From a virus (taxonomy: Duplodnaviria; Heunggongvirae; Uroviricota; Caudoviricetes), in IMG/VR virus record IMGVR_UViG_3300013902_000267: 64,000 nt of DNA; one strand, 5' to 3'. Shown here in pieces: positions 30,823-46,938 of the stretch. The notes under the pieces were generated by a model. It did not search any database. It was not told the origin of the DNA and saw only the letters and a list, made by a program, of their open reading frames with translations. Positions within the stretch are counted from its first letter, which is position 1. Each line of letters starts with the position of its first letter. A program made the position numbers and the translations under genes.

Positions 30823-30827
30823 AATGA

Positions 30828-31280: not shown

Positions 31281-31282
31281 TT

Positions 31283-31477: not shown

Positions 31478-31598
31478 TATCGTTTTAATTTAAGTTATTA
31501 ATATACATATATTACTTTAAAAATATTGATTTGTTTACTCATATAAAATAAAAAATCTCTAATAATCTTTCAAAATTATTAGAGATAAAAATATAAAA

Positions 31599-32393
31599 TT
31601 ACTTTCCAAGAATTAAATTAGGAATTCCGTGACTACCAACATATGTTTTTGGTAGTTCTCCTGTCCATTTTTCAATTGCCATTTTTTGAATAAGCAAAGG
31701 TGTAAGAGACTGTTCTTTCAACTTATTTGCTTTAGCTTCTGCTTCTGCAAGAACAATCTTTTTCTTTGCTTCTGCTTCTGCCACGCGTATCTCATTGCTG
31801 ACTCGCATTTCATCTTGTATAGCTTTGTTTTTAGCATTAATAGCTTCTTCATAAGATTTCGGATAACCAATACCTGGTGTTAGTTGCTGAAGAATAAAAT
31901 GTTCTTTTGCAAATGATTTTCTAACTCTATCCTCAAATGATTTATCAACTGATTCTCGATTTGATACAATCTGATCTGCTGTATACTTGTTGAATTCAAT
32001 ACGAGCAGCGTCTCTAATATATACATATAATGTATTCTTTACAATATCATCAAGTTGCTTACGATATTTCTTAAATATAATAGGCGATTTCCCATCTTCT
32101 ATTTTTACAAGAACTGCTGGATCAACTGTAAATTTTGTTCCATCTTTACTGTTTACTTCAAATGATGGATAATCTACTGTCTGAATATATGTAGGATATT
32201 CAAATACGTCATTCGTAAATGGACAATACCATTTAACGCCTGTACATAGACTTACTTCACCCACACCCTTATCATCACCATAAAGATTTACATAAATACC
32301 TTCACACCCTGCGTCTATCCTCTCATACCAGCAAGATGTCAAACTCATACATGCTATAATAGCAACAATAAAATTCAATAGAATTTTCTTCAT
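31599..32393 (-). CDS. SPFH/band-7 (prohibitin/HflKC-like) lipoprotein
   Basis: Signal peptide with lipobox (MSLTSCW). C-terminal coiled coil with an AEAEAKKKIVLAEAEAKANKL repeat typical of stomatin/HflC. Confidence 0.5.
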   Translation of the reverse strand: MKKILLNFIVAIIACMSLTSCWYERIDAGCEGIYVNLYGDDKGVGEVSLCTGVKWYCPFTNDVFEYPTYIQTVDYPSFEVNSKDGTKFTVDPAVLVKIEDGKSPIIFKKYRKQLDDIVKNTLYVYIRDAARIEFNKYTADQIVSNRESVDKSFEDRVRKSFAKEHFILQQLTPGIGYPKSYEEAINAKNKAIQDEMRVSNEIRVAEAEAKKKIVLAEAEAKANKLKEQSLTPLLIQKMAIEKWTGELPKTYVGSHGIPNLILGK

Positions 32394-32418
32394 ATAAAAT
32401 TATATTTTAAATAGTTAA

Positions 32419-32670
32419 TTAATGTTGTATATTCTTATTCATTTCTTTTTGTCTCTTCATATATCTAATATAAAAATCATTATAATATCGCAATACAATA
32501 ATACAGCAATATATAGTAAATAATATAACAAATAACGCTACAATATTTAAAATCGTAGATGTTACAGAAAGTAATGTAGGTATTGCATATCCAAACATTA
32601 CAACCAGCAGAATAATAAATCCTGATGTTACTGTATAAATTCCTAATTTTCTAAGTGGATTATGATACAT
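32419..32670 (-). CDS. small 2-TM membrane protein
   Basis: Two hydrophobic helices. Adjacent to the SPFH gene and a possible NfeD-like partner. Confidence 0.4.
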   Translation of the reverse strand: MYHNPLRKLGIYTVTSGFIILLVVMFGYAIPTLLSVTSTILNIVALFVILFTIYCCIIVLRYYNDFYIRYMKRQKEMNKNIQH

Positions 32671-32779
32671 AGTTTTAATTTTTATAATTATAATTTTATA
32701 TAATTATTTATTACATTTGTCTACTTTTAATATAAAGAAAAGAGAATAACAAGTTAATGTTATTCTCTTCAATATAAAA

Positions 32780-34816
32780 TTACTTTTCAATCATCTTAAT
32801 AGATCTCTTAACGAATTTCGCTAAATCTTCACCTTGAAGCAAACCATACTGCAACAATGCAATATCAATCAACTCGTGAATATGATTATCTGTATGTGCA
32901 TGATTATTGATGATTTCTTTCTTCTTCTCTAGGACTTTATCAAGTTCTTCCTTAATAGGTTTCTTTGCATCATCATTTTCTGCGTTTTCAAGGCGTGAAT
33001 TAATGTCTTTAACTTGTTCATTAATTTCATTAATTGCAGGTCCAATTTCTTTTTCTGCAATCTTAATAATTTTCTTAACAACCTTTGAATCTGCATTAAT
33101 TACAAATTTAATATTTGCATTATCCTCAAGATACATACCAGCATTATTAAGCATAGACATTTCTTTCATACGACGGAAGAACTCATCTGCGATAATAGTA
33201 ATAGGCAAAGCATCCTTGCCATCTTGCTTAACCTGGAATTGATGTGTAATCTTAGGAAGATTCAAATCAATACAATCAAACAAAGAAATAAGCATACTAA
33301 TAATATTATCAGAAATTGGTTTAACTTTCTTTGTATCATCTTCTTTCTGAATAAGTTCCTCTGGTACTGCAGAGTCAATTCTCTTAAATGTTACATTCTT
33401 ATCCTGAAGTTTCATCTCGAATGTATGAACTTCAAATGCACCATATTGACTATTAAACAACAAGATGTTATATCCATATTCCTTCAATGCTTCAATATAT
33501 GTATATTGTGTAGCAGTATCATATGTATAAAGATATACAATCTTTCCATTCTTATCTTTCTGTGTCTCTAATACCTTATCATAATATTCATCAAAAGTAT
33601 ACATCTTATTATCTGTATCAACAAGAAGAATAATATCCTTTGCCTTGTCAAAAATATTAGGCTCCGTTACAACACCAAGGTTAATAAATGTTTTAATCGT
33701 CTCCCATTTCTTTTCATATGTTTCACGATCTTTCTTCATAAGAGTTCTCAATGAACTCATTACCTTATTTGTAATATGTGAACTAATCTTCTTAACATTC
33801 GCATCATTCTGAAGAACTGATCTTGAAACATTCAAAGGAATATCAGGGGAATCAATCACACCATGAAGAAGACTCAAATAATCTGGCAATACACCATCAA
33901 CATCATCTGTAACGAATACGCGGTTACAATACAAATTCAAATGTCTACGTTCAAAAATAGGATGTTTTTGATCGAATGCTGGGAAATAAAGAATACCCTT
34001 AAATGTAAATGGTGTATCAATATTAATATGAATCCAGAAAAGAGGGTCAGGTCTACCAGGAAATGTATCCTTATAAAACTTAATATAATCTTCATCTTTA
34101 AGTTCTGATGCAGACTTCAACCACAATGGTTCATCTCTTGTAATCAAATTTTCTGTAGGCTCTGGATATGTAACTTCACCTGTAGACGCATCTGTTGTAG
34201 GTGCAGGAATATCTTTAAGATAAATCTTTACAGGAAGATATTCAGCATATTTCTTAAGAAGTTCAGAAAGTTTTGAATTATTTACATATTCCTTATACTC
34301 ATCAGAAATATGCATAATTACATCTGTACCAACAGTTTCTTTATCATCATCTACAAGAGTAAATTCTGTTGTTCCTTCACAAGTCCAACGACATGCTGTT
34401 GAACCTTCCTTATAACTCTTTGTGACAATCTCAACCTTTGAACTCACCATGAAACTTGAATAGAATCCAAGTCCAAAATGTCCAATAATCTGAGTATCTT
34501 TATATTTCTCAAGAAAATCATTAGCACCCGAAAATGCAATCTGATTAATATACTTCTCTACTTCATCAGCAGTCATACCGATACCCATATCAGATACAGT
34601 AATAGTATTATCTTCATGATTAATAGATACTGTAACTTTCAAATCATCGGGATTTGCATTATACTCATTTGCGCTAATAACCTTAACAAGTTTCTCTGTT
34701 GCATCAACTGCATTACTAACAATCTCACGGATAAAAATATCCTGATCGTTGTACATGAACTTTTTTATCAATGGAAAAATATCCTAACTAGTAACTCCAA
34801 TATTACCTTTTTGCAT
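32780..34816 (-). CDS. htpG: Hsp90-family chaperone (HtpG), 678 aa, N-terminus extended through a TAG codon
   Basis: DIFIREIVSNAVDA, GHFGLGFYSSFMV and ~660 aa of colinear Hsp90 layout. The true start is ATG 34816 (MQKGNIGVTS(Q)DIFPLIKKFMYNDQ...). The ORF track starts at an internal Met after a TAG. Confidence 0.8.
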
Positions 34817-34900
34817 ATTTAATTATCAATAAAATTTTTATTTAATTATTATACTCTAATATAAGTTAATTGTTTGAATTATTTTAAAATAAAAAAGGGT

Positions 34901-34929
34901 ATAACCTTTAGAGTTATACCCTTTAAAAA
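34901..34929. terminator. hairpin GGGTATAAC-ctttaga-GTTATACCC
   Basis: 9-bp stem flanked by A- and T-runs in the htpG upstream region. Confidence 0.35.
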
Positions 34930-35495
34930 TTAATAGTATGTTTTTAATAATTATTCAAAATCTAAAAGTCCAATAAAATCTCCGCTTTAAATTAACCTCC
35001 AATAACACAGGGACATTCATTACTCATTAATCATCCAATTAATCTATAATACTATTTTCATCTCATTTTCAACTCCTAAACTTATATCAAACTTTTATTT
35101 TAAAATAAAAATCTTTATAAAAATTATCATCTCATTTTCAATTCCAATATATTACTTCATAATCTTCAAATTAACTTTCTTGGGTATAATACTACTGTAC
35201 TATTAAAATAAAGTTTCAATAATACCTTCCTAATAAACTGAAATAACTAATAAATAGTATCTAATTTATGTTTTTACTTGATTTATGGGATTATCAGAAA
35301 TATGTATATTGTTTATTCTTAAATATATTTAATCGTTCATATTCTATTATATATTACTACAACTATACATATATTCATATCATATTTCTAATTATAAATA
35401 TCTATTGATACTTATCTGATAAAGGAAATGGTCATAAAATCATAATGGTTTAGCCTATAGATTCAGTTATACTATTATTTTTTATATTATATCTT

Positions 35496-35921
35496 TTACT
35501 TATTAGTACTATCCTCTTTATTATTTTGAGCAATATCTTCATTCATCATTCGATAAATACGCTCAGGTGATTCATTGAATGTTGCAGACTCAATTGTCTC
35601 ATTATTAAAGTAAATAGTTGATACATACTTTCCAGATTCCTCTGTTTGAGAAATAACAGAAATAATATCTGTATTTACAATCATTACAGAATTATCGTCA
35701 TTCGAATGAAGCTTCAAAAAATCTGTATTACCAAAATCAATAATATTTTGATAAATTTTCTCGGGTGTTTCATTCACTGTAATACTATCAATATTATCAT
35801 CATCAAAATATACAGTTGTTACTTTATCTTCTGTACATACAATACTAATCTTATTAATACGTATAATAATAACACTGTTATCTTCCTTTGAATGAAGTTT
35901 CAAAAACTTATTTGTTGACAT
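35496..35921 (-). CDS. protein with two tandem ~60-aa repeats (FlbD-like pattern)
   Basis: FLKLHSKEDNSVIIIRINKISIV...VNETPEKIYQNI is duplicated as FLKLHSNDDNSVMIVNTDIISVI...FNESPERIYRMM. Confidence 0.4.
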   Translation of the reverse strand: MSTNKFLKLHSKEDNSVIIIRINKISIVCTEDKVTTVYFDDDNIDSITVNETPEKIYQNIIDFGNTDFLKLHSNDDNSVMIVNTDIISVISQTEESGKYVSTIYFNNETIESATFNESPERIYRMMNEDIAQNNKEDSTNK

Positions 35922-36016
35922 ATTTGTTATTTAGTTTATATTACTTTATTAAATTCAAATTACAATAATCATATAATGTAAATTAGATAAAGTCTATAAT
36001 TTATTTAAAATATTTT

Positions 36017-36421
36017 TTACTTACAAGGAATCCAATTAAACTCCATAGAAAATACTTGCAATCCTGGTTCATACTTAATATGATACATTTTGCAATCATT
36101 TCTATTTAATGTAAATATAGTTCCTTGTGGTCCTTCTACTTGCTTAAGAATTAATACATTAAGAAGTTGACTTTTTGATGTATAAATAAACTTCTTACAT
36201 ATATATTTCTTAACTATTTCTCTTGATCCACAAACTGACTTTTGCCTAAGCATATACTTTTGTCCAATAACAAACTTTTTGTTAACAAGAGCTTTTGCAT
36301 TATTCTTTGCCTCTTGTTTTGATAATTCAACAATAGGTTCAATTAATGCGTCTTGCTCTTGTTCTTGCTTAGTCTTTAGTTCAGATTTTTTTGGACTCGC
36401 TTCCATCAAAAAAAATCCCAT
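36017..36421 (-). CDS. hypothetical protein (134 aa)
   Basis: Uninterrupted ORF. Confidence 0.45.
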   Translation of the reverse strand: MGFFLMEASPKKSELKTKQEQEQDALIEPIVELSKQEAKNNAKALVNKKFVIGQKYMLRQKSVCGSREIVKKYICKKFIYTSKSQLLNVLILKQVEGPQGTIFTLNRNDCKMYHIKYEPGLQVFSMEFNWIPCK

Positions 36422-36438
36422 AACTATATATACTAAAA

Positions 36439-37560
36439 TTACTTTTTATCTGTATCTGTCAATGATACTTCAAGTTGACGTGCAAATTCACGCAAATGAT
36501 GCTCATATTCTTTTCGCTCCTCTGCACCACGTTCATGAATATTCTTAACTTCCTGAATAGTCTGAATAAGTTCCTGAGTTGTGTCCTTAAGTGTATCAAG
36601 TTTAATAACCGATTCCTCACTTGCCTTTGCAACATTAACAGAATTCATATGCAATGCCTTTGCATTTTCACGAAGGATCTTATTCGTTGTATCAGTAATT
36701 CTTTGTTGTGCCTCAATAGAATTTTTCTGATTATTCATAATGATACTAATAGAAATCTGATTCTTCCACAACGGTAAAACATTATTTACAATATTATCAG
36801 ACTTATCTGCAATTGCAATATTATTTTGCTGAGTTGCTCTAATCTGAAGAAGATTCTGCGTCAATACATATTCAGTTGTCTCCATATCAACAACCTTCTT
36901 CTGGATCTGATTCAAGAAATTCTGAGTATCATTAATCTCATACATTTCATAATCATTTGCATGTGCCTTCATATTTTCAAGTTCATCCTTTACTGCTTGC
37001 TCACGAATTTTAGCAGCCAAAATCAACTCTCGTATTTGCTCAATATATGATACATTAGCATCAAAAATAACATTAAGTGTTGAGTTATCTCTCAATGCAA
37101 CAGTACGTGCTTGGTCAATCTTTTCACCAATCTTAGATACACTATCCTTAATAGTATCATATTTTGTCATAATAGACTCAACAGAAGTCATCATCTTTCC
37201 AATAATAGGGAAATTACGCCAAAACTTCTTCCATCGTGTATTAGTATTAATCTCATCAATATCAATAAGATTAAGTTGTCCAAGAAGTTCATTTGTCAAC
37301 TGAACAACAACAGATGAATTATCGCCACGAACAGAATTCAAAAGGTTATCACCATTTCGAGAAATAACAGAGCTAAGTTCCTTACCATATGATGTAACAG
37401 TTGTCATATCATGTCGATCAAGTTTCTCTGTCTTTTGTAGATACTTTTGCTTTTCATCAGCAGACATAACAGCAATACGCTGATCATAGTTATACTGATT
37501 TTGAGTAAGGGTTTCTACTTGTCCCTTCTCATTAAACATTGCTACTTTTGTATTATCCAT
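36439..37560 (-). CDS. TelA-like (toxic anion resistance family) coiled-coil protein
   Basis: 373 aa, highly helical, Q/N/E-rich. Overall resemblance to TelA/KlaA only. Confidence 0.35.
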   Translation of the reverse strand: MDNTKVAMFNEKGQVETLTQNQYNYDQRIAVMSADEKQKYLQKTEKLDRHDMTTVTSYGKELSSVISRNGDNLLNSVRGDNSSVVVQLTNELLGQLNLIDIDEINTNTRWKKFWRNFPIIGKMMTSVESIMTKYDTIKDSVSKIGEKIDQARTVALRDNSTLNVIFDANVSYIEQIRELILAAKIREQAVKDELENMKAHANDYEMYEINDTQNFLNQIQKKVVDMETTEYVLTQNLLQIRATQQNNIAIADKSDNIVNNVLPLWKNQISISIIMNNQKNSIEAQQRITDTTNKILRENAKALHMNSVNVAKASEESVIKLDTLKDTTQELIQTIQEVKNIHERGAEERKEYEHHLREFARQLEVSLTDTDKK

Positions 37561-37633
37561 TAACTTTAGTAATTTAAAATTATTAATTAAAATTTACATT
37601 AATATATATAATAACTTATTAAAAATGTTTAAT

Positions 37634-38197
37634 TTACCAACCACATTTTTCAGTTATTAACTTTAATTTGTCTTTCTCCTCTTTTTTCAATGCATCAACT
37701 TCTTCTTTTACCATATGTGGATCATCATATATTTGAATTTTAGGTAAAACTTTTTTATTCTTATTACGACCCCACATTTCATTTAGATATTTGCTATATT
37801 TAGACATCGCTTCAAATCTATAATCAGGTGCATATCTATTATTATTTGTTGCAATATAATATAATTCTTCCTTTTTCTTATCAACGAAATCTTCTAATGT
37901 TTTGTTATTACCTATATATCTTTCCAATAATCTATAATTAAAAGATGTATTTTGAATATTATCCGGAGTAATAGTATTTGCAAGAATTTTTTTACGTTCT
38001 CTATCAATAACAATATATCTAAGTTCACATACGTTAAGTTCTTCGATAAAATTATCACAAACAGACTTATCATCAAATTCTTCTGCTTGTTCATTATCTG
38101 AATTTTGTGGAATACCGTAATTATTGATAGATCTAATCTTATCTATATAAATAACTACATATCTCTTATGCCATAAATATCTTCTATAATTATTCAT
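37634..38197 (-). CDS. hypothetical protein (187 aa)
   Basis: Uninterrupted ORF. Confidence 0.45.
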   Translation of the reverse strand: MNNYRRYLWHKRYVVIYIDKIRSINNYGIPQNSDNEQAEEFDDKSVCDNFIEELNVCELRYIVIDRERKKILANTITPDNIQNTSFNYRLLERYIGNNKTLEDFVDKKKEELYYIATNNNRYAPDYRFEAMSKYSKYLNEMWGRNKNKKVLPKIQIYDDPHMVKEEVDALKKEEKDKLKLITEKCGW

Positions 38198-38202
38198 AAT
38201 AA

Positions 38203-38982
38203 TTAAACTTTATCTTGACTAAATATATTATATGAAATATTAAATTCTTTCTCGTTATTTGTTATATTTTTAATAGTACCGAATTCATCTATCATAAATC
38301 CAGCTCTACAATCCAAACATGCATATGTTTCTCTAAATATAGGTGTTTCTTGTTGTTGTGTATGTCCAAATATCTGATAATAAATATCATCTAATTTATT
38401 ATCTTCATATTGTAATTCGCATTCATCAGCCCAAAGTATTGAACCGTATTTAGAATACCCTCCACGTGCATATCCTACATAATCAAAAACTTTTGCTAAC
38501 TTTTGATTATCATGTTTCCGTATAAGTTCATTTAAATATGTAATAGAATCATAAATATTCTTATGTTTTATTTCACCTACATATTCGTTTTTCCATTGAT
38601 TACCAATACATGAATGACTAAATGTTACCATACAATCATTTATCATTCTGTATGTAACTACTTTAAAATATTTTATATTATCAATAAACAATTTACGATA
38701 TTCATCAGCATGCTCATAATCATATCGCGATCTAGATAAAAATTTCTTGCTGATATATTGTATATCATGATTTCCTAATAATAGTGTTACTTTATCAATA
38801 TTTTTAGATTTAAAATCAAGAATTTCTTTGAAATTACTTATAGCATCATCTATAGTTATTCCTTCATATCTATATGGATCCAAATAATCACCTAAGAATA
38901 TAATTTCATCACATTCTTGATTCACACATTCTTTCCAAAATGTACGTCCATGAATATCCGGTATAATTATAATTTTACTCAT
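38203..38982 (-). CDS. Ser/Thr phosphatase-like metallophosphatase (lambda PPase/ApaH-like)
   Basis: IPDIHG, GDYLD and GNHD motifs. Confidence 0.65.
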   Translation of the reverse strand: MSKIIIIPDIHGRTFWKECVNQECDEIIFLGDYLDPYRYEGITIDDAISNFKEILDFKSKNIDKVTLLLGNHDIQYISKKFLSRSRYDYEHADEYRKLFIDNIKYFKVVTYRMINDCMVTFSHSCIGNQWKNEYVGEIKHKNIYDSITYLNELIRKHDNQKLAKVFDYVGYARGGYSKYGSILWADECELQYEDNKLDDIYYQIFGHTQQQETPIFRETYACLDCRAGFMIDEFGTIKNITNNEKEFNISYNIFSQDKV

Positions 38983-39035
38983 TAAATAAAATACTTTTAT
39001 AAATTATATTCATTAGATGATTATTTGTTTGATAA

Positions 39036-40082
39036 TTATTCAGATACATTATCTTTCATAACTTCATGATATTGTTCCTTTGCATATTCTTGCATATCAG
39101 GAACGTCATCTGTTTCATCAATAATTTCAATATTGAGTATTGTTTCGATAACATCCTCCAATGTTACAATACCTCTAAACGTTCCATATTCATCAGTAAT
39201 TGCAGAAATATGTTCATGATTCTTTACCATATCATTAAATATATCTGATACATCTGTAGTATCAATATAGTTATGAATATCATGGACATAATCAGAAATC
39301 TTAATATCCTCCTTTGTTAAATCCAATTCATTCTTAAGAATATAACCACTACAATAGTTATTCATATTCATACAAGGAATACGAGAGAATGTATCACCAT
39401 TAGAAAGATATTTATATAAATCTGTATCTTTATGAACTGTTATATAATCCGCAATAGTTTCAACAACAGTTGCAGGCGTCATAATATCTTCAGCTTTATA
39501 TTGATTAAGTTTCAATATACGTTGAATAATCATATTCTCTTTCTTATCAATTACTCCCTCTTTTGCACCTTCATCTGTCATTGCAATAATCTCTTCACGT
39601 GAAATAGCAACAGCATTATCATTACTAATAAGACGTGTTACAAAATTAAGAATCTTAACCAGTGGATATGTAATATAAATCATTATATTAATTACACGAG
39701 TAACATACAATGTAATATTTTTCCAATAATTTGCACCTATAGTTTTTGGTAAAATCTCAGCAAACATAAGAATCAATACTGTAAATATTGCTGATATGAT
39801 ACCTATAAATGAAGCGCCATCAATACCTTGTTCAACTGCATATGCTGATGCAGCTGAACCAACAATAGATGCACCTACTGTATTTGCAATAGTATTAATA
39901 ATAAGGATAGCAGACAATGGTTTATCCATATTTTCCTTAAAATTTCTTAATATATCTGCCCCAGATTTTCCTTTAAGTGTAGATACAAAAGACATAGGTG
40001 TAGAAGACAAACATGCTTCACATAACGAGCAAATTGCTGATACCACAATGGCAATCAACATATAAATTATAATTGTTTCCAT
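39036..40082 (-). CDS. CNNM/CorC-family membrane protein (DUF21 + CBS pair)
   Basis: Four N-terminal TM helices followed by tandem CBS domains (ILKLNQYKAEDIMTPATVV..., ...EHISAITDEYGTFRGIVTLEDVIE). Confidence 0.6.
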   Translation of the reverse strand: METIIIYMLIAIVVSAICSLCEACLSSTPMSFVSTLKGKSGADILRNFKENMDKPLSAILIINTIANTVGASIVGSAASAYAVEQGIDGASFIGIISAIFTVLILMFAEILPKTIGANYWKNITLYVTRVINIMIYITYPLVKILNFVTRLISNDNAVAISREEIIAMTDEGAKEGVIDKKENMIIQRILKLNQYKAEDIMTPATVVETIADYITVHKDTDLYKYLSNGDTFSRIPCMNMNNYCSGYILKNELDLTKEDIKISDYVHDIHNYIDTTDVSDIFNDMVKNHEHISAITDEYGTFRGIVTLEDVIETILNIEIIDETDDVPDMQEYAKEQYHEVMKDNVSE

Positions 40083-40087
40083 TTAGC

Positions 40088-40396
40088 TTAATCTTTTTTA
40101 TAATAATCATTCAGCCAATCACATTTTTTAAGATAATGGATATATTCACCATTACGGAATGATCCCTCTAAATATTGTGTATCATCCCATGTTTCTTCAT
40201 GTGTATAACCTGTCTGAAGACTATGACATAATACTCTTACATCATTACATTCATCTTCATTGAAATCAGTTAATAATGTAAATACCATATCACCTTCACC
40301 ACCACCATTACGGAATGTATAACCAGTTTTCAGATATTGAGGACGAGACCAGAAATCTGAATGATTCATAGGATAGAATTGTACTTTATTACTCAT
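40088..40396 (-). CDS. hypothetical protein (102 aa)
   Basis: Uninterrupted ORF. Confidence 0.45.
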   Translation of the reverse strand: MSNKVQFYPMNHSDFWSRPQYLKTGYTFRNGGGEGDMVFTLLTDFNEDECNDVRVLCHSLQTGYTHEETWDDTQYLEGSFRNGEYIHYLKKCDWLNDYYKKD

Positions 40397-40434
40397 AATT
40401 ATTTTATTTTTAATTGTTTAATATACCATATTAA

Positions 40435-40698
40435 TTAGAATGGCAGTTCAGATTCAATAACACCTGGCTCTCCTAATGGGAGAAAATCCATACATGTATT
40501 AGTATTAAATACACGATCAAATGCATACATTACAGAAAACTTTACAAACTCATCCTTATCAACAATAAGATCTGATGTTTCCTGCTGAATATATGATGCT
40601 TCTGCAACTAATGTATTTAATGTATCATTATCAGTTAATTCTTTATTAAAACGATTCTTATATTCGTTTTTAATCATTTCTATTAATGTTGTATTCAT
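40435..40698 (-). CDS. hypothetical protein (87 aa)
   Basis: Uninterrupted ORF preceded by a degenerate copy of the promoter motif. Confidence 0.45.
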   Translation of the reverse strand: MNTTLIEMIKNEYKNRFNKELTDNDTLNTLVAEASYIQQETSDLIVDKDEFVKFSVMYAFDRVFNTNTCMDFLPLGEPGVIESELPF

Positions 40699-40724
40699 AT
40701 TTCTTATTTTTTATAATTGAATTA

Positions 40725-40745
40725 TTACATCACAAAGATACACAT
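40725..40745 (-). promoter_or_regulatory. degenerate copy of the conserved promoter motif
   Basis: ATGTGTATCTTTGTGATGTAA on the minus strand, about 27 nt upstream of start 40698. Confidence 0.3.
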
Positions 40746-40810
40746 ATTTTTTAAAACAAAAAAATGATGATACTATATTTTTCAATATAATACCATCATT
40801 TAATATTTAA

Positions 40811-41974
40811 TTATTGTTCGTCAATATAACTATTTGAATCATCATTATCAATATTTTCAGATTGTTCATCTTCAATATTAGTTATACTCTTTAATATATT
40901 ATCTTTATATTTTTTATTTATACATTTATTTAATATATATGGTTCCATAGTTTCCGATCTACTAAACATAAATCCATTTGATTCATATAAATTTGAATTC
41001 TTTTTACATAAAGCAGATATTCTAGAAAATGCAACACCTGTTATCTTTTCCGCATCTTTTAATTTATTACATTTATATAACAATTTTCCGTTTAAATTAA
41101 ATACATTTACTCCTTTTTGTGTTAATAATATATCTTTATTTTTATAATTTACACAATAATTATATATTTCATTAGTCCATTTTCTAGTTAATGTAGGTAA
41201 CTAATATTTTATTATATAATTTTCATAATAATATTTAAAAATAGTTCTTGCTTTCTTAGATGATATAATATAATAACCAAAATTTTTTGTTTTATCTTCT
41301 ATAAAAATATTTGATGTTTTATCCTATAATATTTCTTCAAATCTTTGTTTTATATATAATAGTGTTTCATATGTTCCTACACAACTTATATATAAACGTT
41401 TACTTTTATGTCTATTTTCATTATATACTCCTATAGAACCATCTCCATCTATTACACCTATAATAAAGCAATCCTTATATATAGTTTCTAATATTGGTGG
41501 TATATATACATTCGTTTTCTATTTAGTAATATTAAAATTTTTATATAAATCATTCACTATCTACTCAGATAAAATATGAAAACTTACATTTTTAAATTTT
41601 TTATTATTTAAAATATTATAACCATAATATAATTTATATGTTGATGATATATTATATTTCAACTATTTTAAAAAATTCTCATCTTTTATTGATAATTTTA
41701 TATTCAAATTTTTATTTGTTTTATCTATAGAACCATCGGCAGCTATAAACCCTGCATAGTAAGAATTTATCGGATTTATTAATGAAAAATAATTATCATT
41801 AACATTATAAATACGTTCTCCTTTAATATTTTTCTTTAGTTGTAAATTATATACCTTTTTCCAATATGTTAAATTCTTACAAATTTTACCGGTAATTTCT
41901 TTTGATGCAACCTATTCTGAAATATTTTTATTATTTGCATAATCTATAATTTCCTATAATATATTTTTATCCAT
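40811..41974 (-). CDS. double-motif LAGLIDADG homing endonuclease (387 aa), 7 in-frame TAG
   Basis: YYAGFIAADGSI and CFIIGVIDGDGSI motifs. Continuous frame from ATG 41974 through ORF-track fragment 40811..41083. The C-terminus duplicates the C-terminus of the upstream ligase gene. Confidence 0.7.
40860..40886. repeat. 27-nt direct repeat GATTGTTCATCTTCAATATTAGTTATA (copy 1; copy 2 at 42066-42092)
   Basis: Identical 27-mers encode ITNIEDEQS at the C-termini of both the LAGLIDADG gene and the RNA-ligase-like gene. Confidence 0.6.
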
Positions 41975-42043
41975 TTATTAAAAAATATTTTATATATTTA
42001 TATAAAATATGGAAGCATTTAAACTTAAATGCTTCCATAAATA

Positions 42044-43555
42044 TTAATTAGTTTCATTTTCTGATGATTGTTCATCTTCAATATTAGTTATACCTGCATC
42101 TAATTCTTTTTCTTCCTTATTAACAAAACGATAGCACTTCAATTTGAATGCACGAGGTATCATATCATCTATTTTAATTACAACACCTTCATGTGGAACT
42201 TTATTATTACATTCAGGTGATAACATTTCCATATAAAAATTCTTATCACTTGACATCTTATTCCAAAAATTTTCGTGCCAATGATTAGTTATATCAAGCT
42301 CAGGATACAAATCTTTAGCTTTACCATAATAATATTCAATTACAGGTGTTAATTCATGTTGAATACACCATACTTGTACTTCTCGTGGTGAAAATTCATG
42401 TACATCTCCATCAACATTTGTTAAAGTAATACGATATATCATTATCTTAAAATGCTTTCCATATGTATACTCTTCACCAGACTTTAAAGGTACACATCCA
42501 TAATCATATCCCTTTTGTATATAATTATTATTTGGAAGATAACCTACAATTTCTGCATAAATCATCATTCCCTTTATCATGTGTGGCTTTAATACATTAA
42601 ATGCTTCACCCCATATATCAAAATTATAGAATCCCTTATGATATACATTACCATTTTTTTCAGATTCCTTCATTATATACTGGTTTTTTATAACAGTTCT
42701 TGATGAATATAAATAATCATAATCATTAAATTCATAACCTGTTAAAAATTTCGCAATTTTCTGCTTTATAGTTAATTGTTTCTTACATAAAACATAACCA
42801 ACACAAAGAGAAGTACCGTGCCATTTAGAACTTATATGTATATAATCATTAGGTTGAACAACAAATGGAACCTTCTTAACAAGTGCAGTGTCGTAATGGA
42901 ACCTAAATTGTTCTGGTATAACTCTGTTAAATCTCTTTAACTTTCGTTGTCTTCTCTTATATCTAGATTGATCACCTCCAGTTTTATTTCTCTTTATAAA
43001 TATCTTTGGTATAAATTTCTTTGATAACCAAAATGATTTACCATTATGTTCAATAGTATCAAACCATGTTCCATCCTTTATATCATTCTCATTAACTTCT
43101 ATATTAAAATTATCTAATATAAAATTAAGAACTACTTGTAATTCTATCAAGAAACCATCTGATACACCATTAGGTAAAAATACTTTTTCAACTTCTCCAG
43201 TAGATGGATCAATTTTATCCATTGTTGCTCGTAGTCTAATGGACTTCACTCTACCATTATCATCAAATAACCCAGTTTTATTAGGATTACTATTCATTTC
43301 ATTTTTACGATATAAATTAGCATATCTTAAAAATTCAGGATTTATTTGTGTACTTGATGGAAAGAATACATATTTTCCTGGTTGTGAATCCTTACTTACT
43401 ATAACATTATAAATTGTATCTCCACCTATTCTACAACACTTTAACTTGTTAACTTCAGGATTAGGATGTGGAGAGAAATCCTCTTCCTTGATATAAATTA
43501 CACGTGAAACATAATTAGGGTGTAATTCACTTTCCTTCGACTTAATAAACTTCAT
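42044..43555 (-). CDS. RNA ligase-like nucleotidyltransferase with long N-terminal extension (503 aa)
   Basis: ISSKWHGTS (KxHGT, Rnl2-type motif I), HEGVVIKID (motif IV EGxVxK), FKLKC (motif V). Confidence 0.45.
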   Translation of the reverse strand: MKFIKSKESELHPNYVSRVIYIKEEDFSPHPNPEVNKLKCCRIGGDTIYNVIVSKDSQPGKYVFFPSSTQINPEFLRYANLYRKNEMNSNPNKTGLFDDNGRVKSIRLRATMDKIDPSTGEVEKVFLPNGVSDGFLIELQVVLNFILDNFNIEVNENDIKDGTWFDTIEHNGKSFWLSKKFIPKIFIKRNKTGGDQSRYKRRQRKLKRFNRVIPEQFRFHYDTALVKKVPFVVQPNDYIHISSKWHGTSLCVGYVLCKKQLTIKQKIAKFLTGYEFNDYDYLYSSRTVIKNQYIMKESEKNGNVYHKGFYNFDIWGEAFNVLKPHMIKGMMIYAEIVGYLPNNNYIQKGYDYGCVPLKSGEEYTYGKHFKIMIYRITLTNVDGDVHEFSPREVQVWCIQHELTPVIEYYYGKAKDLYPELDITNHWHENFWNKMSSDKNFYMEMLSPECNNKVPHEGVVIKIDDMIPRAFKLKCYRFVNKEEKELDAGITNIEDEQSSENETN

Positions 43556-43657
43556 ACTAGATTTAATTTTATTTTCCTATGTCATTCTTTAGTTCGAGTC
43601 TCCACTACTCACGTATCACCAGATTATTTTTTAATAGGAAAATAATCAAACCTATTA

Positions 43658-43930
43658 TTAATATTTAGAAAACTGTTCATTCAGAACAGATAATTCTTTT
43701 TCTTTCTTAAAAATTAGCTTATCTAGGAAATCATCCATCATTCTCATTTCATCTTGATTTAGAATAATGTCAATATATGGTTTTCCATAATGATATGTTT
43801 GATAATCACTTTTCATTATCCATTCAATATCATGCAACTTTTTTAATTCTTTACATGCGGATATAATACCTTTAGTCTTTAATATTCTTTCATGTAAAGA
43901 ATTAATTTTTTTTAAAGTATCTTCATTCAT
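43658..43930 (-). CDS. hypothetical protein (90 aa)
   Basis: Uninterrupted ORF. Confidence 0.45.
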   Translation of the reverse strand: MNEDTLKKINSLHERILKTKGIISACKELKKLHDIEWIMKSDYQTYHYGKPYIDIILNQDEMRMMDDFLDKLIFKKEKELSVLNEQFSKY

Positions 43931-43933
43931 AAT

Positions 43934-44425
43934 TTAAAATAGTTTAACGGACGCATTAGTATCCATTCTTTCCTTCATACCATTATTATAATAATCAGCC
44001 AAAATTTCAGCTTTAATTTTAGGTGACAATACTTTCCGTACTACATAATCATAATTAAAATTAAAGAATTCATTTATAGCTATTACCATTTCATATGCAG
44101 ATAATGTCTTCACCTCTGCTAATTTATTTTTCATGTAATAGAAGATTTTCCCTGTTTCTTCCTTAGGTATTTTTGGAACGACGAATGTAGATGTATCAAC
44201 TTTATATTGTTCTGCAAATGGAGATTCTATCCATATGCTATATAATTTTTCTGCTGTATCTTTCCTTTCATGCAACAAGACTATATCATCTGTCATCGCA
44301 TAATCATACTAATCTGCGACTAAAGGAGATACAGTCATTGTTTGACTTGAAAGATCTGCATTATAGTCTGAACTCGCAAAATACCCATCATTACTAAGCA
44401 TCTTCTATGTATTAATTCTTGCCAT
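43934..44425 (-). CDS. hypothetical protein (163 aa), 2 in-frame TAG in N-terminal extension
   Basis: ATG 44425: MARINT(Q)KMLSNDGYFASSDYNADLSSQTMTVSPLVAD(Q)YDYAMTDDIV..., continuous with ORF 43934..44296. Confidence 0.45.
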
Positions 44426-44491: not shown

Positions 44492-46000
44492 TTACATAGA
44501 AAATAAATCTTGTGCTTGTATTTGTGTTTCAGTTAATCCTAATTGCGGAGTACTCATAGAATCAGATGCACCGGGACGAATACCAACAGATGAAGAATAA
44601 TTATTTGAATTATTATGTTGGTAATTATTATCTCCTTTATGCTTATCTTTTACTAATCCATCCAATGAAACATTCTCAGGAATAATATTTTCCTCAAGAT
44701 TCTCTTCAATTCTTAAATATGTAGGATTAAAATCAAATTTCTTCTTATCTCCCATGTGTCCAGAATTACGTATTGCTACTGCTTTCAAATAATATGTATT
44801 ATCTACACGCATTAAAGATGACTGAATAATACCGAACAAACTATCAACAGTTGCGATAAGACCTCCAGATTCTGAAACGTTACTCATACCAATATCAGTA
44901 GAATCATATGCAGTTCTATTTGTCTGTGTTAATGATACAACACACCAATTATTTCTCTGAGCCATCGCACGAACATCCTCGCAGATAGATTTAATCTTTA
45001 AATATGTACTTTCAGAATTTGGATTCTTTGCGTCTTTCATAATATTAACATAATCAATGAAAATGTTCTTAAACTTAAATGGTTTATCTTCTGTAGATAA
45101 CTCTTCTTCTTGCTTAAGTAAGAATGACTCAATATCATAAACAGTTGCAGATGATGTAGGGAACTCTTCTATAATAAACTTACCTGGATTAATAAGTGAA
45201 TTCATATAAAATTCCTTCATTTTCTGCATCATAAGATTTGTGTCTGATGCATACTTATCATATTCTTCAATTGGAATATTAAAAAGATTTGAACCTATAC
45301 GTTGTGCTACAAGCTGATAAGCCATCTCCAATGTAATATATGCAGAATTCTCACCATTTCTTACAGAATTCGCACATAGGTTACAAAGCCACATAGATTT
45401 ACCAACTTTAGGTGACCCCATAAATACATTAAGAGTCTTATTTGCCCATCCGCCTTTCAAACATTGATCAACAAAATTATAACCTGTTTTCCTTGTTTCA
45501 AGTTCAGTTTGTTTATGATTAATTGGGTCAAAGAAATCATGTCCTTTAGAATTATTTAATGTAAAATTAGTTTCACTCTGAAATAATGATTTTATATGTT
45601 GTACAATTTCTGCACAATTTTCAAATGTAACTTCAGATTCTGTTGTCTTTACATATTCAATAACTCTTCGGAGACCTGTCATTAAATTCTACCATTCGCC
45701 AAATGCTACTGTATTCTGTTCCAACCATTCATCTGTATATTGACTAACCATATCACGAGTTTGCCATAATGTATGAATTTGATCTTCTGTTACTTTATCA
45801 TCTTTAGCTGCTAATCTAATAAGATCTATTGTTTGTTGCTCAGTTGGTTCTGCTCTAAAATCTAATATATGCGGTTTAACCACATCAAATATAATTTTTA
45901 ATGCAGGATTAGTAAAATATCTTCCTTTAAAAGACTATACAAGATTTAAATTCTTAATTATATAAAAGAATATGACGTTTTCAAGATACGTATTATTCAT
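44492..46000 (-). CDS. DnaB/gp4-like replicative DNA helicase (502 aa), 2 in-frame TAG
   Basis: ORF 45689..45883 ends in TAG and reads through into ORF 44492..45682. Walker A GSPKVGKS, then ITLEM (DnaB SLEM-like) RecA-fold. The N-terminal extension continues to ATG 46000 through another TAG. Confidence 0.6.
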
Positions 46001-46125: not shown

Positions 46126-46938
46126 TCATTTTATTGGAATTTTTGATGTTTTTTCAAAGATTTTTCTATTGTTTTCATCATTAAGTATATACCCACTGTG
46201 AATAACAAATTTATCTCTATCAAACTCCCCATATTCATCTGATTTCATATGAACAGTTTCCTTATATACAAATCTTCCATATTTCTTTCCATCATCAAAT
46301 GTATTCCAATCAATATCAGTTGATTCTTTCAAAATATCTATAAGTTCATCTGCTTTCTTTGATGTACATTCCTTATGTGACAAATAAGTTCTTACTGTTT
46401 GTTGCTTGCTGTTTCTTATACAATCAAGTTGTCTATATAAGAACCATGTATAAACATCATTATATGATGGAACATTCCATGCTTTACAATCGAACTCATG
46501 TAATTTTATATTATTAATAATATCAATAAGTTCAGATTTACTGAATTGCTCTTTACATGTTCTATTAATTGCTTCAATAATCATTAATTGATTAAACTTA
46601 GATGTTGCCATTGATGCACATAGTGGTAATATTTTCTCCAATCTATAACCAAAAAATGAATCTGTTTCTGGTGTATCAAAATCCGTAATAACAAGAGATA
46701 TTTCATCTGACTGGACATATGCGAATTTACATCCTTGTATACATTCACATAAATATCTTGCGGTTTCATTCATAATATTAATGAATGTATCATCAAATGG
46801 TTTCTTGAAATATTTTTTAATGGTTGATGAAAATGATCTACCGTCTAACATAACCATTACATAACTATTTGGCATTAACTTATAATCTGTTAAACCACGA
46901 AGATATAGCATTCTATCTTCAATATTCTTAAATTTCAT
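46126..46938 (-). CDS. Thg1-like protein (tRNA-His guanylyltransferase family; 3'-5' polymerase)
   Basis: MKFKNIEDRMLYLRGLTDYKLMPNSYVMVMLDGRSFSSTIKKYFKKPFDDTFINIMNETARYL matches the Thg1 N-terminal signature (KFEYV..., vvRxDGxxFxxF, kPxD...LMn.aA). The start is probably the internal ATG 46938. Confidence 0.55.
   Translation of the reverse strand: MKFKNIEDRMLYLRGLTDYKLMPNSYVMVMLDGRSFSSTIKKYFKKPFDDTFINIMNETARYLCECIQGCKFAYVQSDEISLVITDFDTPETDSFFGYRLEKILPLCASMATSKFNQLMIIEAINRTCKEQFSKSELIDIINNIKLHEFDCKAWNVPSYNDVYTWFLYRQLDCIRNSKQQTVRTYLSHKECTSKKADELIDILKESTDIDWNTFDDGKKYGRFVYKETVHMKSDEYGEFDRDKFVIHSGYILNDENNRKIFEKTSKIPIK

What the first reader, a model, noticed from the sequence alone, without database searches (positions are those of the whole stretch)
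40811..43555. Recoded LAGLIDADG endonuclease next to an RNA-ligase-like gene, bracketed by a 27-bp direct repeat that duplicates the ligase C-terminal coding sequence
The identical 27-mer GATTGTTCATCTTCAATATTAGTTATA (40860-40886 and 42066-42092) encodes ITNIEDEQS at the C-terminus of both the 503-aa ligase-like protein and the downstream LAGLIDADG protein. This looks like the footprint of a mobile endonuclease gene inserting into, or recombining with, the 3' end of its neighbour. It may be a free-standing homing-endonuclease gene with co-converted flanks, or a degenerate intron or intein arrangement. The region 41100-42000 has no ORF in the track because the gene uses 7 TAGs.
Basis: partly seen in the sequence, partly recalled or inferred. 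Interest (0 to 1): 0.6.

Follow-up and report, generated by a model that had tools for sequence, protein, structure and literature searches.

The report
Mobile endonuclease cassette in ligase tail
A selfish, mobile endonuclease gene written in the phage's altered genetic code sits inside the last codons of an RNA-ligase-like gene of a Lak megaphage and brings a spare ligase tail with it; this is a clear but fairly ordinary homing element, of a design so far described in fungal mitochondria.

Summary
The window is Prevotella megaphage Lak-B. The repeat is exact (28 nt, spacing 1206). The 387-codon ORF between the copies is an intact LAGLIDADG endonuclease with 7 in-frame TAG (Gln in Lak phages).

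Lak-A1, A2 and C1 and seven related contigs have the same locus with one repeat copy and no endonuclease. The cassette carries a replacement ligase tail with its own stop and terminator. It also carries an endonuclease ORF with no stop of its own. That ORF runs in frame into the displaced original ligase tail and uses its stop and terminator.

A Lak-A/C-like contig (L095) also carries the cassette. It shares about 1.67 kb at roughly 97% identity with Lak-B, while the flanks are about 80% identical. This indicates recent transfer between lineages with co-converted flanks.

Full-length relatives of the endonuclease always lie directly downstream of ligase homologues in very different gut phages. 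About a third end in a ligase tail (…NIEDxx). A second clean presence/absence pair exists (L024/L025).

No intron or intein was found. The design matches the 'mobile ORF' elements of fungal mitochondria. Cleavage activity, the target site and self-immunity are inferred, not shown.

The parts
42044..43555 (-). RNA-ligase-like gene (503 aa). Motif I is SKWHGTS (42829-42809), motif IV is EGVVIK (42190-42173) and motif V is AFKLK (42151-42137). It has no in-frame TAG.
   Evidence: PF09414 at 27.1 bits (cut-off 27) and phrog_968 at 1.6e-23. More than 80 homologues were found in gut phage contigs.
42047..42124 (-). Replacement ('inserted') ligase tail carried by the cassette: VNKEEKELDAGITNIEDEQSSENETN, followed by TAA at 42046-42044. 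The stretch shared with the L095 cassette starts slightly upstream, at about 42155.
   Evidence: L095 is Lak-C1-like upstream. It switches to the Lak-B type between 42158 and 42152. In L024 the homologous insertion point is at the equivalent of 42125|42124.
42066..42093 (-). Upstream copy of the exact 28-nt direct repeat (GT ATA ACT AAT ATT GAA GAT GAA CAA TC). It encodes the conserved C-terminal ligase motif ITNIEDEQS.
42008..42039 (-). Terminator-like hairpin (14-bp stem plus a U run). It lies inside the insert, 5 nt after the new ligase stop.
   Evidence: Terminator scan. Fold energy is -18.1 kcal/mol, z = -5.7.
41975..42007 (-). AT-rich spacer between the hairpin and the endonuclease ATG. 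A promoter is presumed but not identified. The spacer is unique in the window.
   Evidence: The stretch is 96-98% identical between Lak-B and L096, against 86-91% for the endonuclease body.
40811..41974 (-). LAGLIDADG homing endonuclease ORF of 387 codons plus TAA. The 7 TAG (Gln) codons are at 41956, 41914, 41665, 41563, 41521, 41326 and 41203 (first bases). LAGLIDADG motif 1 is YYAGFIAADGSI (41761-41726). Motif 2 is FIIGVIDGDGSI (41467-41432). The NUMOD1-like helix-turn-helix region is at 41116-41000.
40860..40887 (-). Downstream copy of the 28-nt repeat. It marks the start of the displaced native ligase tail and of the right-hand homology with endonuclease-free genomes.
40811..40885 (-). 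Displaced native ligase tail (ITNIEDEQSENIDNDDSNSYIDEQ plus TAA). It is now read as the last 24 codons of the endonuclease.
   Evidence: It is the same tail that ends the ligase in endonuclease-free Lak-A/C-like genomes. It is modelled as disordered, with pLDDT below 50 for residues 369-387.
40763..40801 (-). Native ligase terminator hairpin followed by a U run. It now follows the endonuclease ORF.
   Evidence: Fold energy is -19.2 kcal/mol, z = -6.4. It is conserved in endonuclease-free genomes.
40490..40859 (-). Right-hand co-conversion tract. This Lak-A/C-like sequence (97-98.6% identity) is embedded in a Lak-B genome that is otherwise about 82% identical to Lak-A/C. It ends inside the 87-aa ORF (40698..40435).
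   Evidence: (Fisher p = 4.6e-10)
40490..42155 (-). The whole segment shared at about 95-100% identity between Lak-B and the Lak-A/C-like, endonuclease-carrying contig L095. This is the unit that moved, with its co-converted flanks.

Best explanation
The region is a free-standing homing-endonuclease cassette inserted in frame into the last codons of the RNA-ligase-like gene of megaphage Lak-B. It is neither an intron nor an intein.

Shown:
- The cassette adds 1206 bp compared with endonuclease-free alleles.
- It supplies a replacement ligase C-terminus with its own stop (...ITNIEDEQSSENETN*) and a terminator hairpin.
- It also supplies a LAGLIDADG endonuclease gene written in the phage's TAG = Gln code. 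NUMOD1-like helix-turn-helix regions are inferred from homologues.
- This gene has no stop of its own. It runs in frame into the displaced original ligase tail and uses that tail's stop codon and terminator.
- The 27/28-bp direct repeat is the overlap between the replacement tail and the displaced tail. It covers the most conserved C-terminal ligase motif (NIED).
- The cassette has moved between Lak lineages that are about 20% diverged, taking flanking sequence with it.
- Its full-length relatives occupy the same position behind ligase genes in many unrelated gut phages.

Inferred:
- During mixed infection the enzyme cuts endonuclease-free ligase alleles near the motif V / NIED coding region.
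- Recombinational repair then copies the cassette from the carrier genome. The ligase body serves as the left homology arm. The displaced tail and the sequence downstream of it serve as the right arm.
- The replacement tail keeps the ligase functional, so carrying the cassette costs the phage little.
- The dense TAG codons probably hold back translation of the enzyme until the phage's suppressor tRNA is active.
- The direct repeat allows precise loss of the cassette, which would regenerate a cleavable allele.
For: Identity and empty sites:
- The window is 100% identical to Lak-B2, B4 and B7.
- Lak-A1, A2 and C1 match in two pieces that overlap by 28 nt exactly at the repeat, so they are empty sites. 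Seven further A/C-like contigs are also empty.

The endonuclease is an intact gene:
- Pfam and PHROG hits.
- 7 TAG and no other in-frame stop.
- dN/dS is 0.20 against two orthologues. TAG alternates with CAA at codons 138 and 286.
- The structure model has pLDDT 89. Its best PDB matches are all monomeric LAGLIDADG enzymes.

Horizontal movement:
- L095 has flanks 96.5-96.8% identical to Lak-C1, yet it carries the cassette.
- Lak-B versus L095 identity rises from about 80% to 92-100% between about 42155 and about 40490.
- The right flank of Lak-B is 97-98.6% identical to A/C-like genomes, against 82-83% on either side (p = 4.6e-10).

Second, independent pair:
- L024 equals L025 (96-98% identical) plus a clean 1252-bp insert.
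- That insert consists of a foreign ligase tail with a stop, a spacer, and an endonuclease ORF without a stop. The ORF reads into the native tail, which matches L025's at all but one base and encodes the same residues.

Family-wide pattern:
- 415 relatives were found. About a third of the best 120 end in ...NIEDxx.
- A ligase homologue lies directly upstream in all 10 contexts inspected.
- The same holds for 12 of the 13 best IMG/VR loci, against 1 of 67 distant core-only LAGLIDADG loci.

Other:
- Ancestral ligases end at NIEDxx*.
- Terminator hairpins follow both stops.
- Lak phages read TAG as Gln and encode a CTA suppressor tRNA and RF2 (PMC6784885).
- Delay of endonuclease production by recoding was proposed for an intron-encoded enzyme in Agate phages (bioRxiv 10.1101/2021.08.26.457843).
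Against: - No cleavage, target site or homing has been shown experimentally.
- In Lak-B the two repeat copies are identical over 28 bp. Both junction types of any target up to 27 bp therefore survive in the carrier genome. Self-immunity cannot be explained by simple target disruption. It would have to rest on a few synonymous differences or on a longer, bipartite site.
- The direction of the Lak transfer (A/C-like to B) is inferred by parsimony only.
- NUMOD1 is not detected in the Lak-B protein itself, only in homologues.
- No promoter was identified for the endonuclease.
- The L024 copy has two in-frame TGA codons that are not at Trp positions, so some copies are decaying.
- The ligase assignment sits exactly at Pfam's threshold. 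It has no NCBIfam or PDB sequence match.
Confidence: 0.8

Rival explanations
1. The cassette is ancestral in Lak phages. On this reading the 'empty' Lak-A/C alleles are secondary losses by recombination or slippage between the two repeat copies, not sites that were never invaded. The repeat would then matter mainly as an excision substrate.
For: Recombination between the two 28-bp copies would give exactly the Lak-A/C-type allele, a ligase ending in the long ENIDNDDSNSYIDEQ tail. That long tail is found only in Lak phages, whereas most relatives end at NIEDxx*. Three Lak lineages carry the cassette.
Against: Loss alone does not explain why Lak-B and L095 share the cassette at about 97% while their flanks are about 80% identical. 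It also does not explain why the Lak-B right flank is A/C-like. Horizontal movement is required in any case. Ten A/C-like contigs are empty and one is filled. This reading is compatible with the best explanation, as one phase of a gain and loss cycle.
Confidence: 0.2
2. The endonuclease gene is no longer a mobile element. It is retained (domesticated) or inactive, and is kept for a role other than homing.
For: It is fixed in all nine Lak-B genomes. The identical repeat leaves potential target halves intact in the carrier genome. Purifying selection (dN/dS 0.20) would fit a host-beneficial role equally well.
Against: A 1.67-kb segment centred on the gene was exchanged between diverged lineages recently, at about 97% identity. 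The family has a patchy distribution at one conserved site. Both LAGLIDADG motifs keep their acidic residues.
Confidence: 0.12
3. The arrangement is a degenerate group I intron or an intein in the ligase gene.
For: The endonuclease ORF is in the same reading frame as the ligase, and it is bracketed by ligase coding sequence.
Against: No Rfam intron family matches at E <= 1. The only hit is a sub-threshold miRNA model on the terminator hairpin. Four TAA stops and a strong hairpin lie between the ORFs. There is no Hint domain and no splice-junction residues were seen on reading the sequence. The ligase is complete without splicing, and it ends beyond the NIEDxx position where most homologues stop.
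Confidence: 0.02
4. The repeat is an assembly artefact.
For: Short exact repeats can mislead assemblers.
Against: The structure is identical in independently assembled and curated genomes and contigs from several projects. Sequence-diverged versions occur in L095 and L096. A second lineage, L024, has the same architecture.
Confidence: 0.01

Closest known systems
Mobile endonuclease ORFs ('mORFs') of fungal mitochondria: Allomyces macrogynus atp6 (Paquin et al. 1994, as cited in PMC3630166) and Glomus sp. atp6, atp9, cox2 and nad3 (PMC3630166)
   Same: The anatomy is the same: host gene body, then an inserted foreign C-terminus, then an endonuclease ORF (mostly LAGLIDADG), then the displaced native C-terminus. 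[quoted passage not shown] The inserted tail is diverged from the native one (L024 here). Presence/absence alleles exist in close relatives.
   Different: The host here is a bacteriophage genome, not a mitochondrion, and the target is an RNA-ligase-like gene. The ligase and the endonuclease are separate ORFs, divided by stops and a terminator, rather than one fused reading frame. The endonuclease is written with TAG as Gln. In Lak-B the two tails are identical over 28 bp rather than clearly diverged.
Free-standing homing endonucleases of T-even phages (SegF, SegG, MobE); 'intronless homing' with co-conversion (PMC2988022, PMC2790892)
   Same: Both are phage-encoded endonuclease genes that lie between or next to conserved genes. 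Both spread by double-strand-break repair in mixed infection, with co-conversion of flanking markers. Both create boundaries of sequence identity (compare PMC10448857).
   Different: Seg and Mob enzymes are GIY-YIG or HNH, not LAGLIDADG. They sit in intergenic regions and do not carry a replacement end for the neighbouring gene or read into it. Their activity has been shown experimentally; here it is inferred.
Recoded group I intron endonuclease of Agate phages (bioRxiv 10.1101/2021.08.26.457843)
   Same: A homing endonuclease gene rich in reassigned stop codons lies in or next to a gene that does not use them. The proposed effect is that the enzyme cannot be made until the code change takes effect late in infection.
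   Different: That gene lies within a self-splicing intron and uses TGA as Trp. This one is free-standing and uses TAG as Gln. Relatives in this family use TAG (L097) or TGA (L099).
Monomeric double-motif LAGLIDADG enzymes with solved structures (I-Tsp061I, I-AniI, bI3 maturase, I-SceI, I-OnuI family)
   Same: The predicted core fold matches, with Foldseek E-values from 9e-9 to 1e-5 and probability 1.0. There are two LAGLIDADG motifs in one chain.
   Different: Sequence identity is only 8-20%, and there is no match by sequence search of the PDB. This protein has extra N- and C-terminal helix-turn-helix modules and a disordered tail borrowed from the ligase. The solved enzymes are mostly intron- or intein-encoded.

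Membership tests
LAGLIDADG homing endonucleases | Sequence match to a LAGLIDADG family model above the curated threshold | tested here: met
   PF14528 LAGLIDADG_3 scores 30.2 bits against a cut-off of 22.5. Homologues also hit PF00961.
LAGLIDADG homing endonucleases | Two LAGLIDADG motifs, each ending in a conserved acidic residue (monomeric type), and the alpha-beta-beta-alpha-beta-beta-alpha fold | tested here: met
   The motifs are YYAGFIAADGSI (aa 72-83) and FIIGVIDGDGSI (aa 170-181). In 52 homologues D80/G81 are at least 90% conserved and D176-G179 are invariant. The model has pLDDT 89.4, and its top PDB matches are all LAGLIDADG enzymes.
LAGLIDADG homing endonucleases | Site-specific double-strand cleavage of a long (about 18-22 bp) target | not testable with these tools
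   This needs the expressed enzyme and endonuclease-free ligase alleles as substrate.
Homing (mobile) endonuclease genes in general | Presence/absence polymorphism at one precise site in otherwise near-identical genomes | tested here: met
   L024 versus L025 are 96-98% identical, with a 1252-bp insert. L095 versus Lak-C1 are 96.5-96.8% identical. Lak-B versus Lak-A/C also differ in this way.
Homing (mobile) endonuclease genes in general | Co-conversion of flanking sequence, or horizontal transfer out of step with the genome | tested here: met
   A 1.67-kb segment is 92-100% identical between Lak-B and L095, while the flanks are about 80% identical. The right-hand tract is 97-98.6% against 82-83%.
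mORF-type elements (inserted C-terminus + endonuclease ORF + native C-terminus) | Duplicated host-gene C-terminal coding segment on both sides of the endonuclease ORF. The upstream copy completes the host gene. | tested here: met
   This holds in Lak-B, L095 and L096, and L024. Family members P0003-P0043 end in ...NIEDxx.
mORF-type elements (inserted C-terminus + endonuclease ORF + native C-terminus) | The upstream (inserted) tail is foreign, and the downstream tail matches the close endonuclease-free relative | tested here: met
   In L024 the native tail differs from L025's at one synonymous base, and the inserted tail is diverged. In L095 the native tail is of the Lak-C1 type. Its last roughly 36 ligase codons are of the Lak-B type.
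Group I intron with an endonuclease ORF | Ribozyme core recognisable by a covariance model, and exons joined by splicing | tested here: not met
   No intron family matches at E <= 1 in 40300-43700. The ligase ORF is complete without splicing.
Intein | In-frame insertion without stops, a Hint domain, and conserved splice-junction residues | tested here: not met
   TAA stops at 42046-42044, and three more before the ATG at 41974, interrupt the frame. There is no Hint domain.
Genetic code 15 (TAG = Gln) genes of Lak phages | In-frame TAG at positions that are Gln (CAA or CAG) in orthologues, with the ORF otherwise intact | tested here: met
   Endonuclease codons 138 and 286 alternate between TAG and CAA among lineages. 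The Lak-A1 ligase has one in-frame TAG (codon 203), aligned with Gln in Lak-B and Lak-C1. Three of the 7 TAG align with Q in distant homologues (read). The code assignment itself comes from PMC6784885.
Genetic code 15 (TAG = Gln) genes of Lak phages | Suppressor tRNA (anticodon CTA) available | tested here: inconclusive
   The window holds only tRNA-Gln(CTG) and tRNA-Lys(TTT). A CTA suppressor tRNA and RF2 are reported elsewhere in Lak genomes (PMC6784885).
RNA ligase / nucleotidyltransferase family PF09414 (the neighbouring gene) | Family model match, plus motif I lysine (KxxG), motif IV (EGxxxK) and motif V (KxK) | tested here: inconclusive
   The score of 27.1 bits is right at the cut-off of 27, and phrog_968 gives 1.6e-23. 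SKWHGTS, EGVVIK and AFKLK are present and invariant in A1. There is no NCBIfam or PDB sequence match. The substrate (RNA or DNA) is unknown.

The most novel reading that the evidence does not exclude
In this family, recoding and tail capture may both be adaptive parts of the element rather than accidents.

(a) The endonuclease ORF is kept rich in reassigned stop codons while the adjacent ligase has none. It uses TAG in Lak phages and L097, and TGA in L099. The enzyme could therefore be made only after the phage switches the code. That would time homing to late infection and make the gene silent in any standard-code context.

(b) The in-frame capture of the ligase's conserved, disordered acidic C-terminal peptide (NIEDxx) may be selected. 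It could act as a short linear motif that brings the endonuclease to the same partner or site as the ligase.
Probability: 0.2. Interest if true: 0.6.

Novelty: new member of a known kind. Interest (0 to 1): 0.45.

Why it matters
- **Annotation.** The locus explains an annotation gap in published but unannotated Lak megaphage genomes.
- **Design beyond mitochondria.** The 'mobile ORF carrying a spare gene end' design, so far described in fungal mitochondria, also operates in bacteriophages. It occurs across phages from about 170 kb to 550 kb, always at the 3' end of one RNA-ligase-like gene.
- **Material for experiments.** There are natural endonuclease-carrying and endonuclease-free allele pairs with base-level junctions in two lineages. 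These give defined candidate substrates for a new clade of LAGLIDADG + NUMOD1 enzymes, which could serve as meganuclease scaffolds. They also document recombination between Lak lineages from baboons and humans.
- **Recoding hypothesis.** It is a second, independent case bearing on the idea that stop-codon recoding delays production of selfish nucleases.

None of this overturns current understanding.

Tried and rejected
- **Group I intron.** An Rfam scan of 40300-43700 at E <= 1 found only a sub-threshold miRNA model on the terminator hairpin. Rejected.
- **Intein.** Stops lie between the ORFs and there is no Hint domain. Rejected.
- **Pseudogene with seven nonsense codons.** All seven are TAG, dN/dS is 0.20, and TAG and CAA interchange among orthologues. 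Rejected.
- **Paralogues of the endonuclease elsewhere in Lak genomes as a source.** tblastn found one copy per Lak-B genome and none in Lak-A/C.
- **Conserved right-hand tract explained by purifying selection.** The tract spans a tail, an intergenic region and 74 codons. It has few synonymous changes and ends inside an ORF. Recombination fits better.
- **Sequence search of the PDB.** This found nothing useful for the endonuclease or for the ligase profile. NCBIfam found nothing for the ligase and its small neighbours.
- **NUMOD1 in the Lak-B protein itself.** Not detected. It is supported only through homologues.
- **Long tail of the L085 ligase as a fossil of an endonuclease C-terminus.** No Pfam support. 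Left open.
- **Sigma-70-type promoter scan.** No more sites than in shuffles (32 against 36.4). The spacer has no second copy in the window. No promoter can be named.
- **Literature.** No paper in the held library describes an endonuclease in Lak phages or a mORF-type element in a phage. This is absence in that library only.
Full report
**1.

The 3.6 kb around the finding is 100% identical to Prevotella megaphages Lak-B2, B4 and B7, and 99.8-100% identical to all nine Lak-B genomes. Lak-B2 comes from baboon faeces in Kenya.

The 27-mer occurs exactly twice, at 40860-40886 and 42066-42092. None is expected by chance. The exact repeat is 28 nt, at 40860-40887 and 42066-42093. Weaker similarity runs to 47 nt, and the spacing is 1206 bp.

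On the minus strand, both copies are read as ITNIEDEQS:
- One lies near the end of the 503-aa ORF at 43555..42044.
- The other lies near the end of an ORF at 41974..40811. This ORF has 387 codons, seven in-frame TAG and no in-frame TAA or TGA.

With TAG read as Gln, the second ORF matches LAGLIDADG_3 above Pfam's cut-off (30.2 vs 22.5 bits) and a PHROG endonuclease family (1.6e-22). The first ORF matches PF09414 RNA_ligase exactly at the cut-off (27.1 vs 27) and a PHROG RNA ligase family (1.6e-23).

**2. Endonuclease-free alleles**

Lak-A1, A2 and C1 (human faeces, Bangladesh) match the region in two pieces. The pieces overlap by 28 nt exactly at the repeat. They therefore hold one copy of the repeat and lack 1206 bp.

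In them the ligase ends ...DAGITNIEDAQSENIDNDDSNSYIDEQ*. Apart from one residue (A for E), this is the peptide that ends the endonuclease ORF in Lak-B. Seven more Lak-A/C-like contigs from IMG/VR and metagenomes are the same. The last 24 codons of the Lak-B endonuclease ORF are therefore the displaced original end of the ligase gene.

About 70 more distant ligase homologues (about 50% identity, mostly on 170-190 kb gut phage contigs) nearly all end at ...NIEDxx*. The repeat thus covers the most conserved C-terminal motif of the protein.

**3. Anatomy of the insert**

Reading the minus strand after the upstream repeat copy:
- Six or seven codons and a TAA, giving the ligase the new end ...ITNIEDEQSSENETN*.
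- A 14-bp hairpin followed by a U run, at 42039-42008 (z = -5.7).
- A 33-nt AT-rich spacer.
- The endonuclease ATG at 41974.

The endonuclease ORF has no stop of its own. It continues through the downstream repeat copy into the old ligase tail. It ends at the old ligase stop (40813-40811), which is followed by the old ligase terminator hairpin (40801-40763; z = -6.4).

No Rfam intron model matches. Four TAA codons separate the ORFs. The arrangement is neither an intron nor an intein.

**4. Is the endonuclease gene alive?**

Two other Lak lineages carry orthologues:
- L095 is 96% identical in protein.
- L096 is 87% identical, on a 531-kb contig.

dN/dS is 0.20 in both comparisons. TAG alternates with CAA at codons 138 and 286, and with TAT at codon 21. 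Lak-A1 and Lak-A2 each carry one in-frame TAG in the ligase (codons 203 and 265). The Lak-A1 one aligns with Gln in Lak-B and Lak-C1. This fits the published assignment of TAG as Gln in Lak phages, which encode a CTA suppressor tRNA and RF2 (PMC6784885).

A structure prediction was run on a close orthologue with 51 homologues. It is confident (pLDDT 89.4), except for the borrowed tail, residues 369-387, where pLDDT is below 50. Its best PDB matches are all monomeric LAGLIDADG enzymes: I-Tsp061I, the bI3 maturase, I-AniI, I-SceI and the I-OnuI family.

Both LAGLIDADG motifs keep their acidic residues, which are invariant or nearly so in the family. Homologues carry a NUMOD1 helix-turn-helix above threshold in the region aligned to residues 287-325. 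The Lak-B protein itself does not reach significance there.

**5. Evidence that the cassette moves**

(a) L095 is a Lak-A/C-type genome. Its flanks are 96.5-96.8% identical to Lak-C1 and about 80% identical to Lak-B, yet it carries the cassette.
- A sliding comparison of Lak-B with L095 rises from about 80% to 92-100% between about 42155 and about 40490, then falls back to about 80%.
- At informative sites, L095 switches from the C1 type to the B type between 42158 and 42152, at the codons of motif V.

(b) The 350 nt downstream of the repeat in Lak-B are 96.8-98.6% identical to ten A/C-like genomes. The 400 nt on either side are 82-83% identical (p = 4.6e-10).
- The tract covers the old tail, the intergenic region and the first 74 codons of the next ORF, with few synonymous changes.
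- Within it, Lak-B is about as close to A/C-like genomes as those are to each other.

The most economical history is that a cassette-bearing A/C-like phage donated the cassette to the Lak-B lineage, together with about 380 bp of its right flank. The direction is an inference.

(c) There is a second, independent pair. L024 and L025 are 96-98% identical, except for a clean 1252-bp insert in L024, placed 20 codons before the ligase stop. That insert consists of:
- A diverged ligase tail with a stop (INKIEQYELDAGIENIEDLN*).
- A spacer.
- A 36%-identical endonuclease ORF without a stop. It reads in frame into the native tail (LNKEQKALDAGEIDIEDNA*), which encodes the same residues as L025's and differs at one base.

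**6. A family with one address**

The protein search found 415 relatives. About a third of the best 120 end in a ligase-type tail (...LDKGExNIEDxx), with junctions at several positions.

In every context inspected, a ligase homologue (34-99% identical to the Lak-B ligase) lies directly upstream on the same strand, 65-120 nt away where measured, while the other neighbours differ completely. The contexts are Lak-B, L095, L096, L023, L024, L058, L097/98, L099, L100/101 and L102/103.

In IMG/VR, 12 of the 13 best loci have the ligase upstream. Only 1 of 67 loci with distant, core-only LAGLIDADG similarity does. A second, unrelated LAGLIDADG lineage also sits behind the ligase in L011, L021 and L022. 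A patchy distribution at one conserved site in diverged genomes is the classic signature of homing.

**7. How it most likely works**

Shown:
- The architecture.
- The presence/absence alleles.
- The transferred segment.
- The site fidelity.

Inferred:
- The enzyme cuts endonuclease-free ligase alleles near the codons for AFKLK...NIED.
- The downstream repeat copy marks where homology with recipient genomes resumes, so it is the start of the right arm.
- The upstream copy is held constant because the ligase needs the motif. That is why the two stay alike while the codons just before the downstream copy (KYKDNILKS) look like a decayed remnant of ...KEEKELDAG.
- The replacement tail keeps the ligase intact.
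- The repeat also permits precise loss.

Unresolved: with a 28-bp identical repeat, both junction types of a 22-bp target survive in Lak-B. Immunity must therefore rest on a few synonymous differences (GCT/GCA, ACA/ACT, GCA/GAA) or on a longer bipartite site. Such a site could be read by the extra helix-turn-helix modules.

**8. Recoding**

The endonuclease has 18 TAG per 1000 codons, and 7 of its 12 Gln codons are TAG. This is like the TAG-rich clusters at 10270-19425 and 62683-63897. The ligase and the genes immediately around it have none.

Relatives repeat the pattern. The L097 endonuclease has 3 TAG. The L099 endonuclease has 2 TGA, one of them at the Trp of the conserved RKW motif. Both neighbouring ligases have none.

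Borges et al. proposed that such codons delay production of an intron-encoded endonuclease until late infection. The same reading fits here but is untested.

**9. Comparison with what is known, and novelty**

The design matches the mobile endonuclease ORFs of fungal mitochondria: an inserted C-terminus, the ORF, then the native C-terminus. [quoted passage not shown]

The mode of spread matches intronless homing in T-even phages. Nuclease genes at boundaries of exchange between phages have also been described (PMC10448857).

I found no paper in the held library that describes an endonuclease in Lak phages or this design in a phage.

I rate it a new member of a known kind. It is a well-documented, tidy case with a clear experimental path, not a surprise in principle.

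Noticed in passing
window 10270-19425 (+), 62683-63897 (+), versus 29039-43930 (-): In-frame TAG use is strongly patchy. Gene clusters with 8-27 TAG per 1000 codons alternate with long runs of genes that have none. This fits the published picture of alternatively coded modules in Lak phages.
   Followed up: partly
window 44492-46000 (-) and 43934-44425 (-): Under TAG = Gln, the DnaB_C-like helicase is about 502 aa with 2 TAG near its start, against a 396-aa standard-code ORF. The next gene is 163 aa with 2 TAG, against 120 aa. Their lengths match the genes called on L096. Standard-code annotation truncates both.
   Followed up: partly
window 46126-46938 (-), plus L097, L099, L100 and L102: The ligase homologue keeps company with RNA-repair-type genes. 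These are a Thg1-like gene in Lak, PNKP-like (AAA_33 + HAD_PNKP) genes in L097 and L099, a PolyA_pol/HD (CCA-adding-like) gene in L100, and HD + AAA_33 and Metallophos genes in L102. This suggests a tRNA or RNA repair role for the ligase.
   Followed up: no
L003 (Lak-A1) codon 203 and L002 (Lak-A2) codon 265 of the ligase: Each of these Lak-A ligase genes carries one in-frame TAG. The Lak-A1 one aligns with Gln in Lak-B and Lak-C1.
   Followed up: yes
L024 4833-6084: This endonuclease copy has two in-frame TGA codons. They lie at positions that are Tyr and Glu/Asp in relatives, not Trp, so the copy is probably decaying after insertion. By contrast, the L099 copy has a TGA at the Trp of the conserved RKW motif, which points to a TGA = Trp phage.
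   Followed up: partly
L011/L021 about 5450-6450; L022 about 4950-5950: A second, unrelated LAGLIDADG endonuclease lineage (PF14528, 35.5 bits) also sits directly behind the ligase gene. It has its own stop and no duplicated tail.
   Followed up: partly
L085 4853-5000; L094 about 4952: Two distant ligases have unusual C-terminal extensions beyond NIED. L085 has 43 extra residues that look vaguely like a helix-turn-helix. L094 has ...NIEDEQSSDEQEE..., which resembles the Lak-B replacement tail. No Pfam support was found for L085, so it remains open whether these are relics of earlier insertions.
   Followed up: partly
L018 (ERZ840057 contig), region homologous to window 40810-40790: This endonuclease-free A/C-like genome shares a 4-bp ATAT indel and nearby bases with Lak-B and L095 in the terminator region. 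It suggests repeated small exchanges at this site.
   Followed up: no
L102 about 4093-4130: Just after the endonuclease stop (TAG), the same frame reads FLNKETEPIDNP. This looks like a decayed native ligase tail, so family members with their own stop may have the same origin.
   Followed up: no
window 33-104 (+) and 62193-62266 (-): The window holds tRNA-Gln(CTG) and tRNA-Lys(TTT) genes. There is no CTA suppressor tRNA in this window.
   Followed up: no
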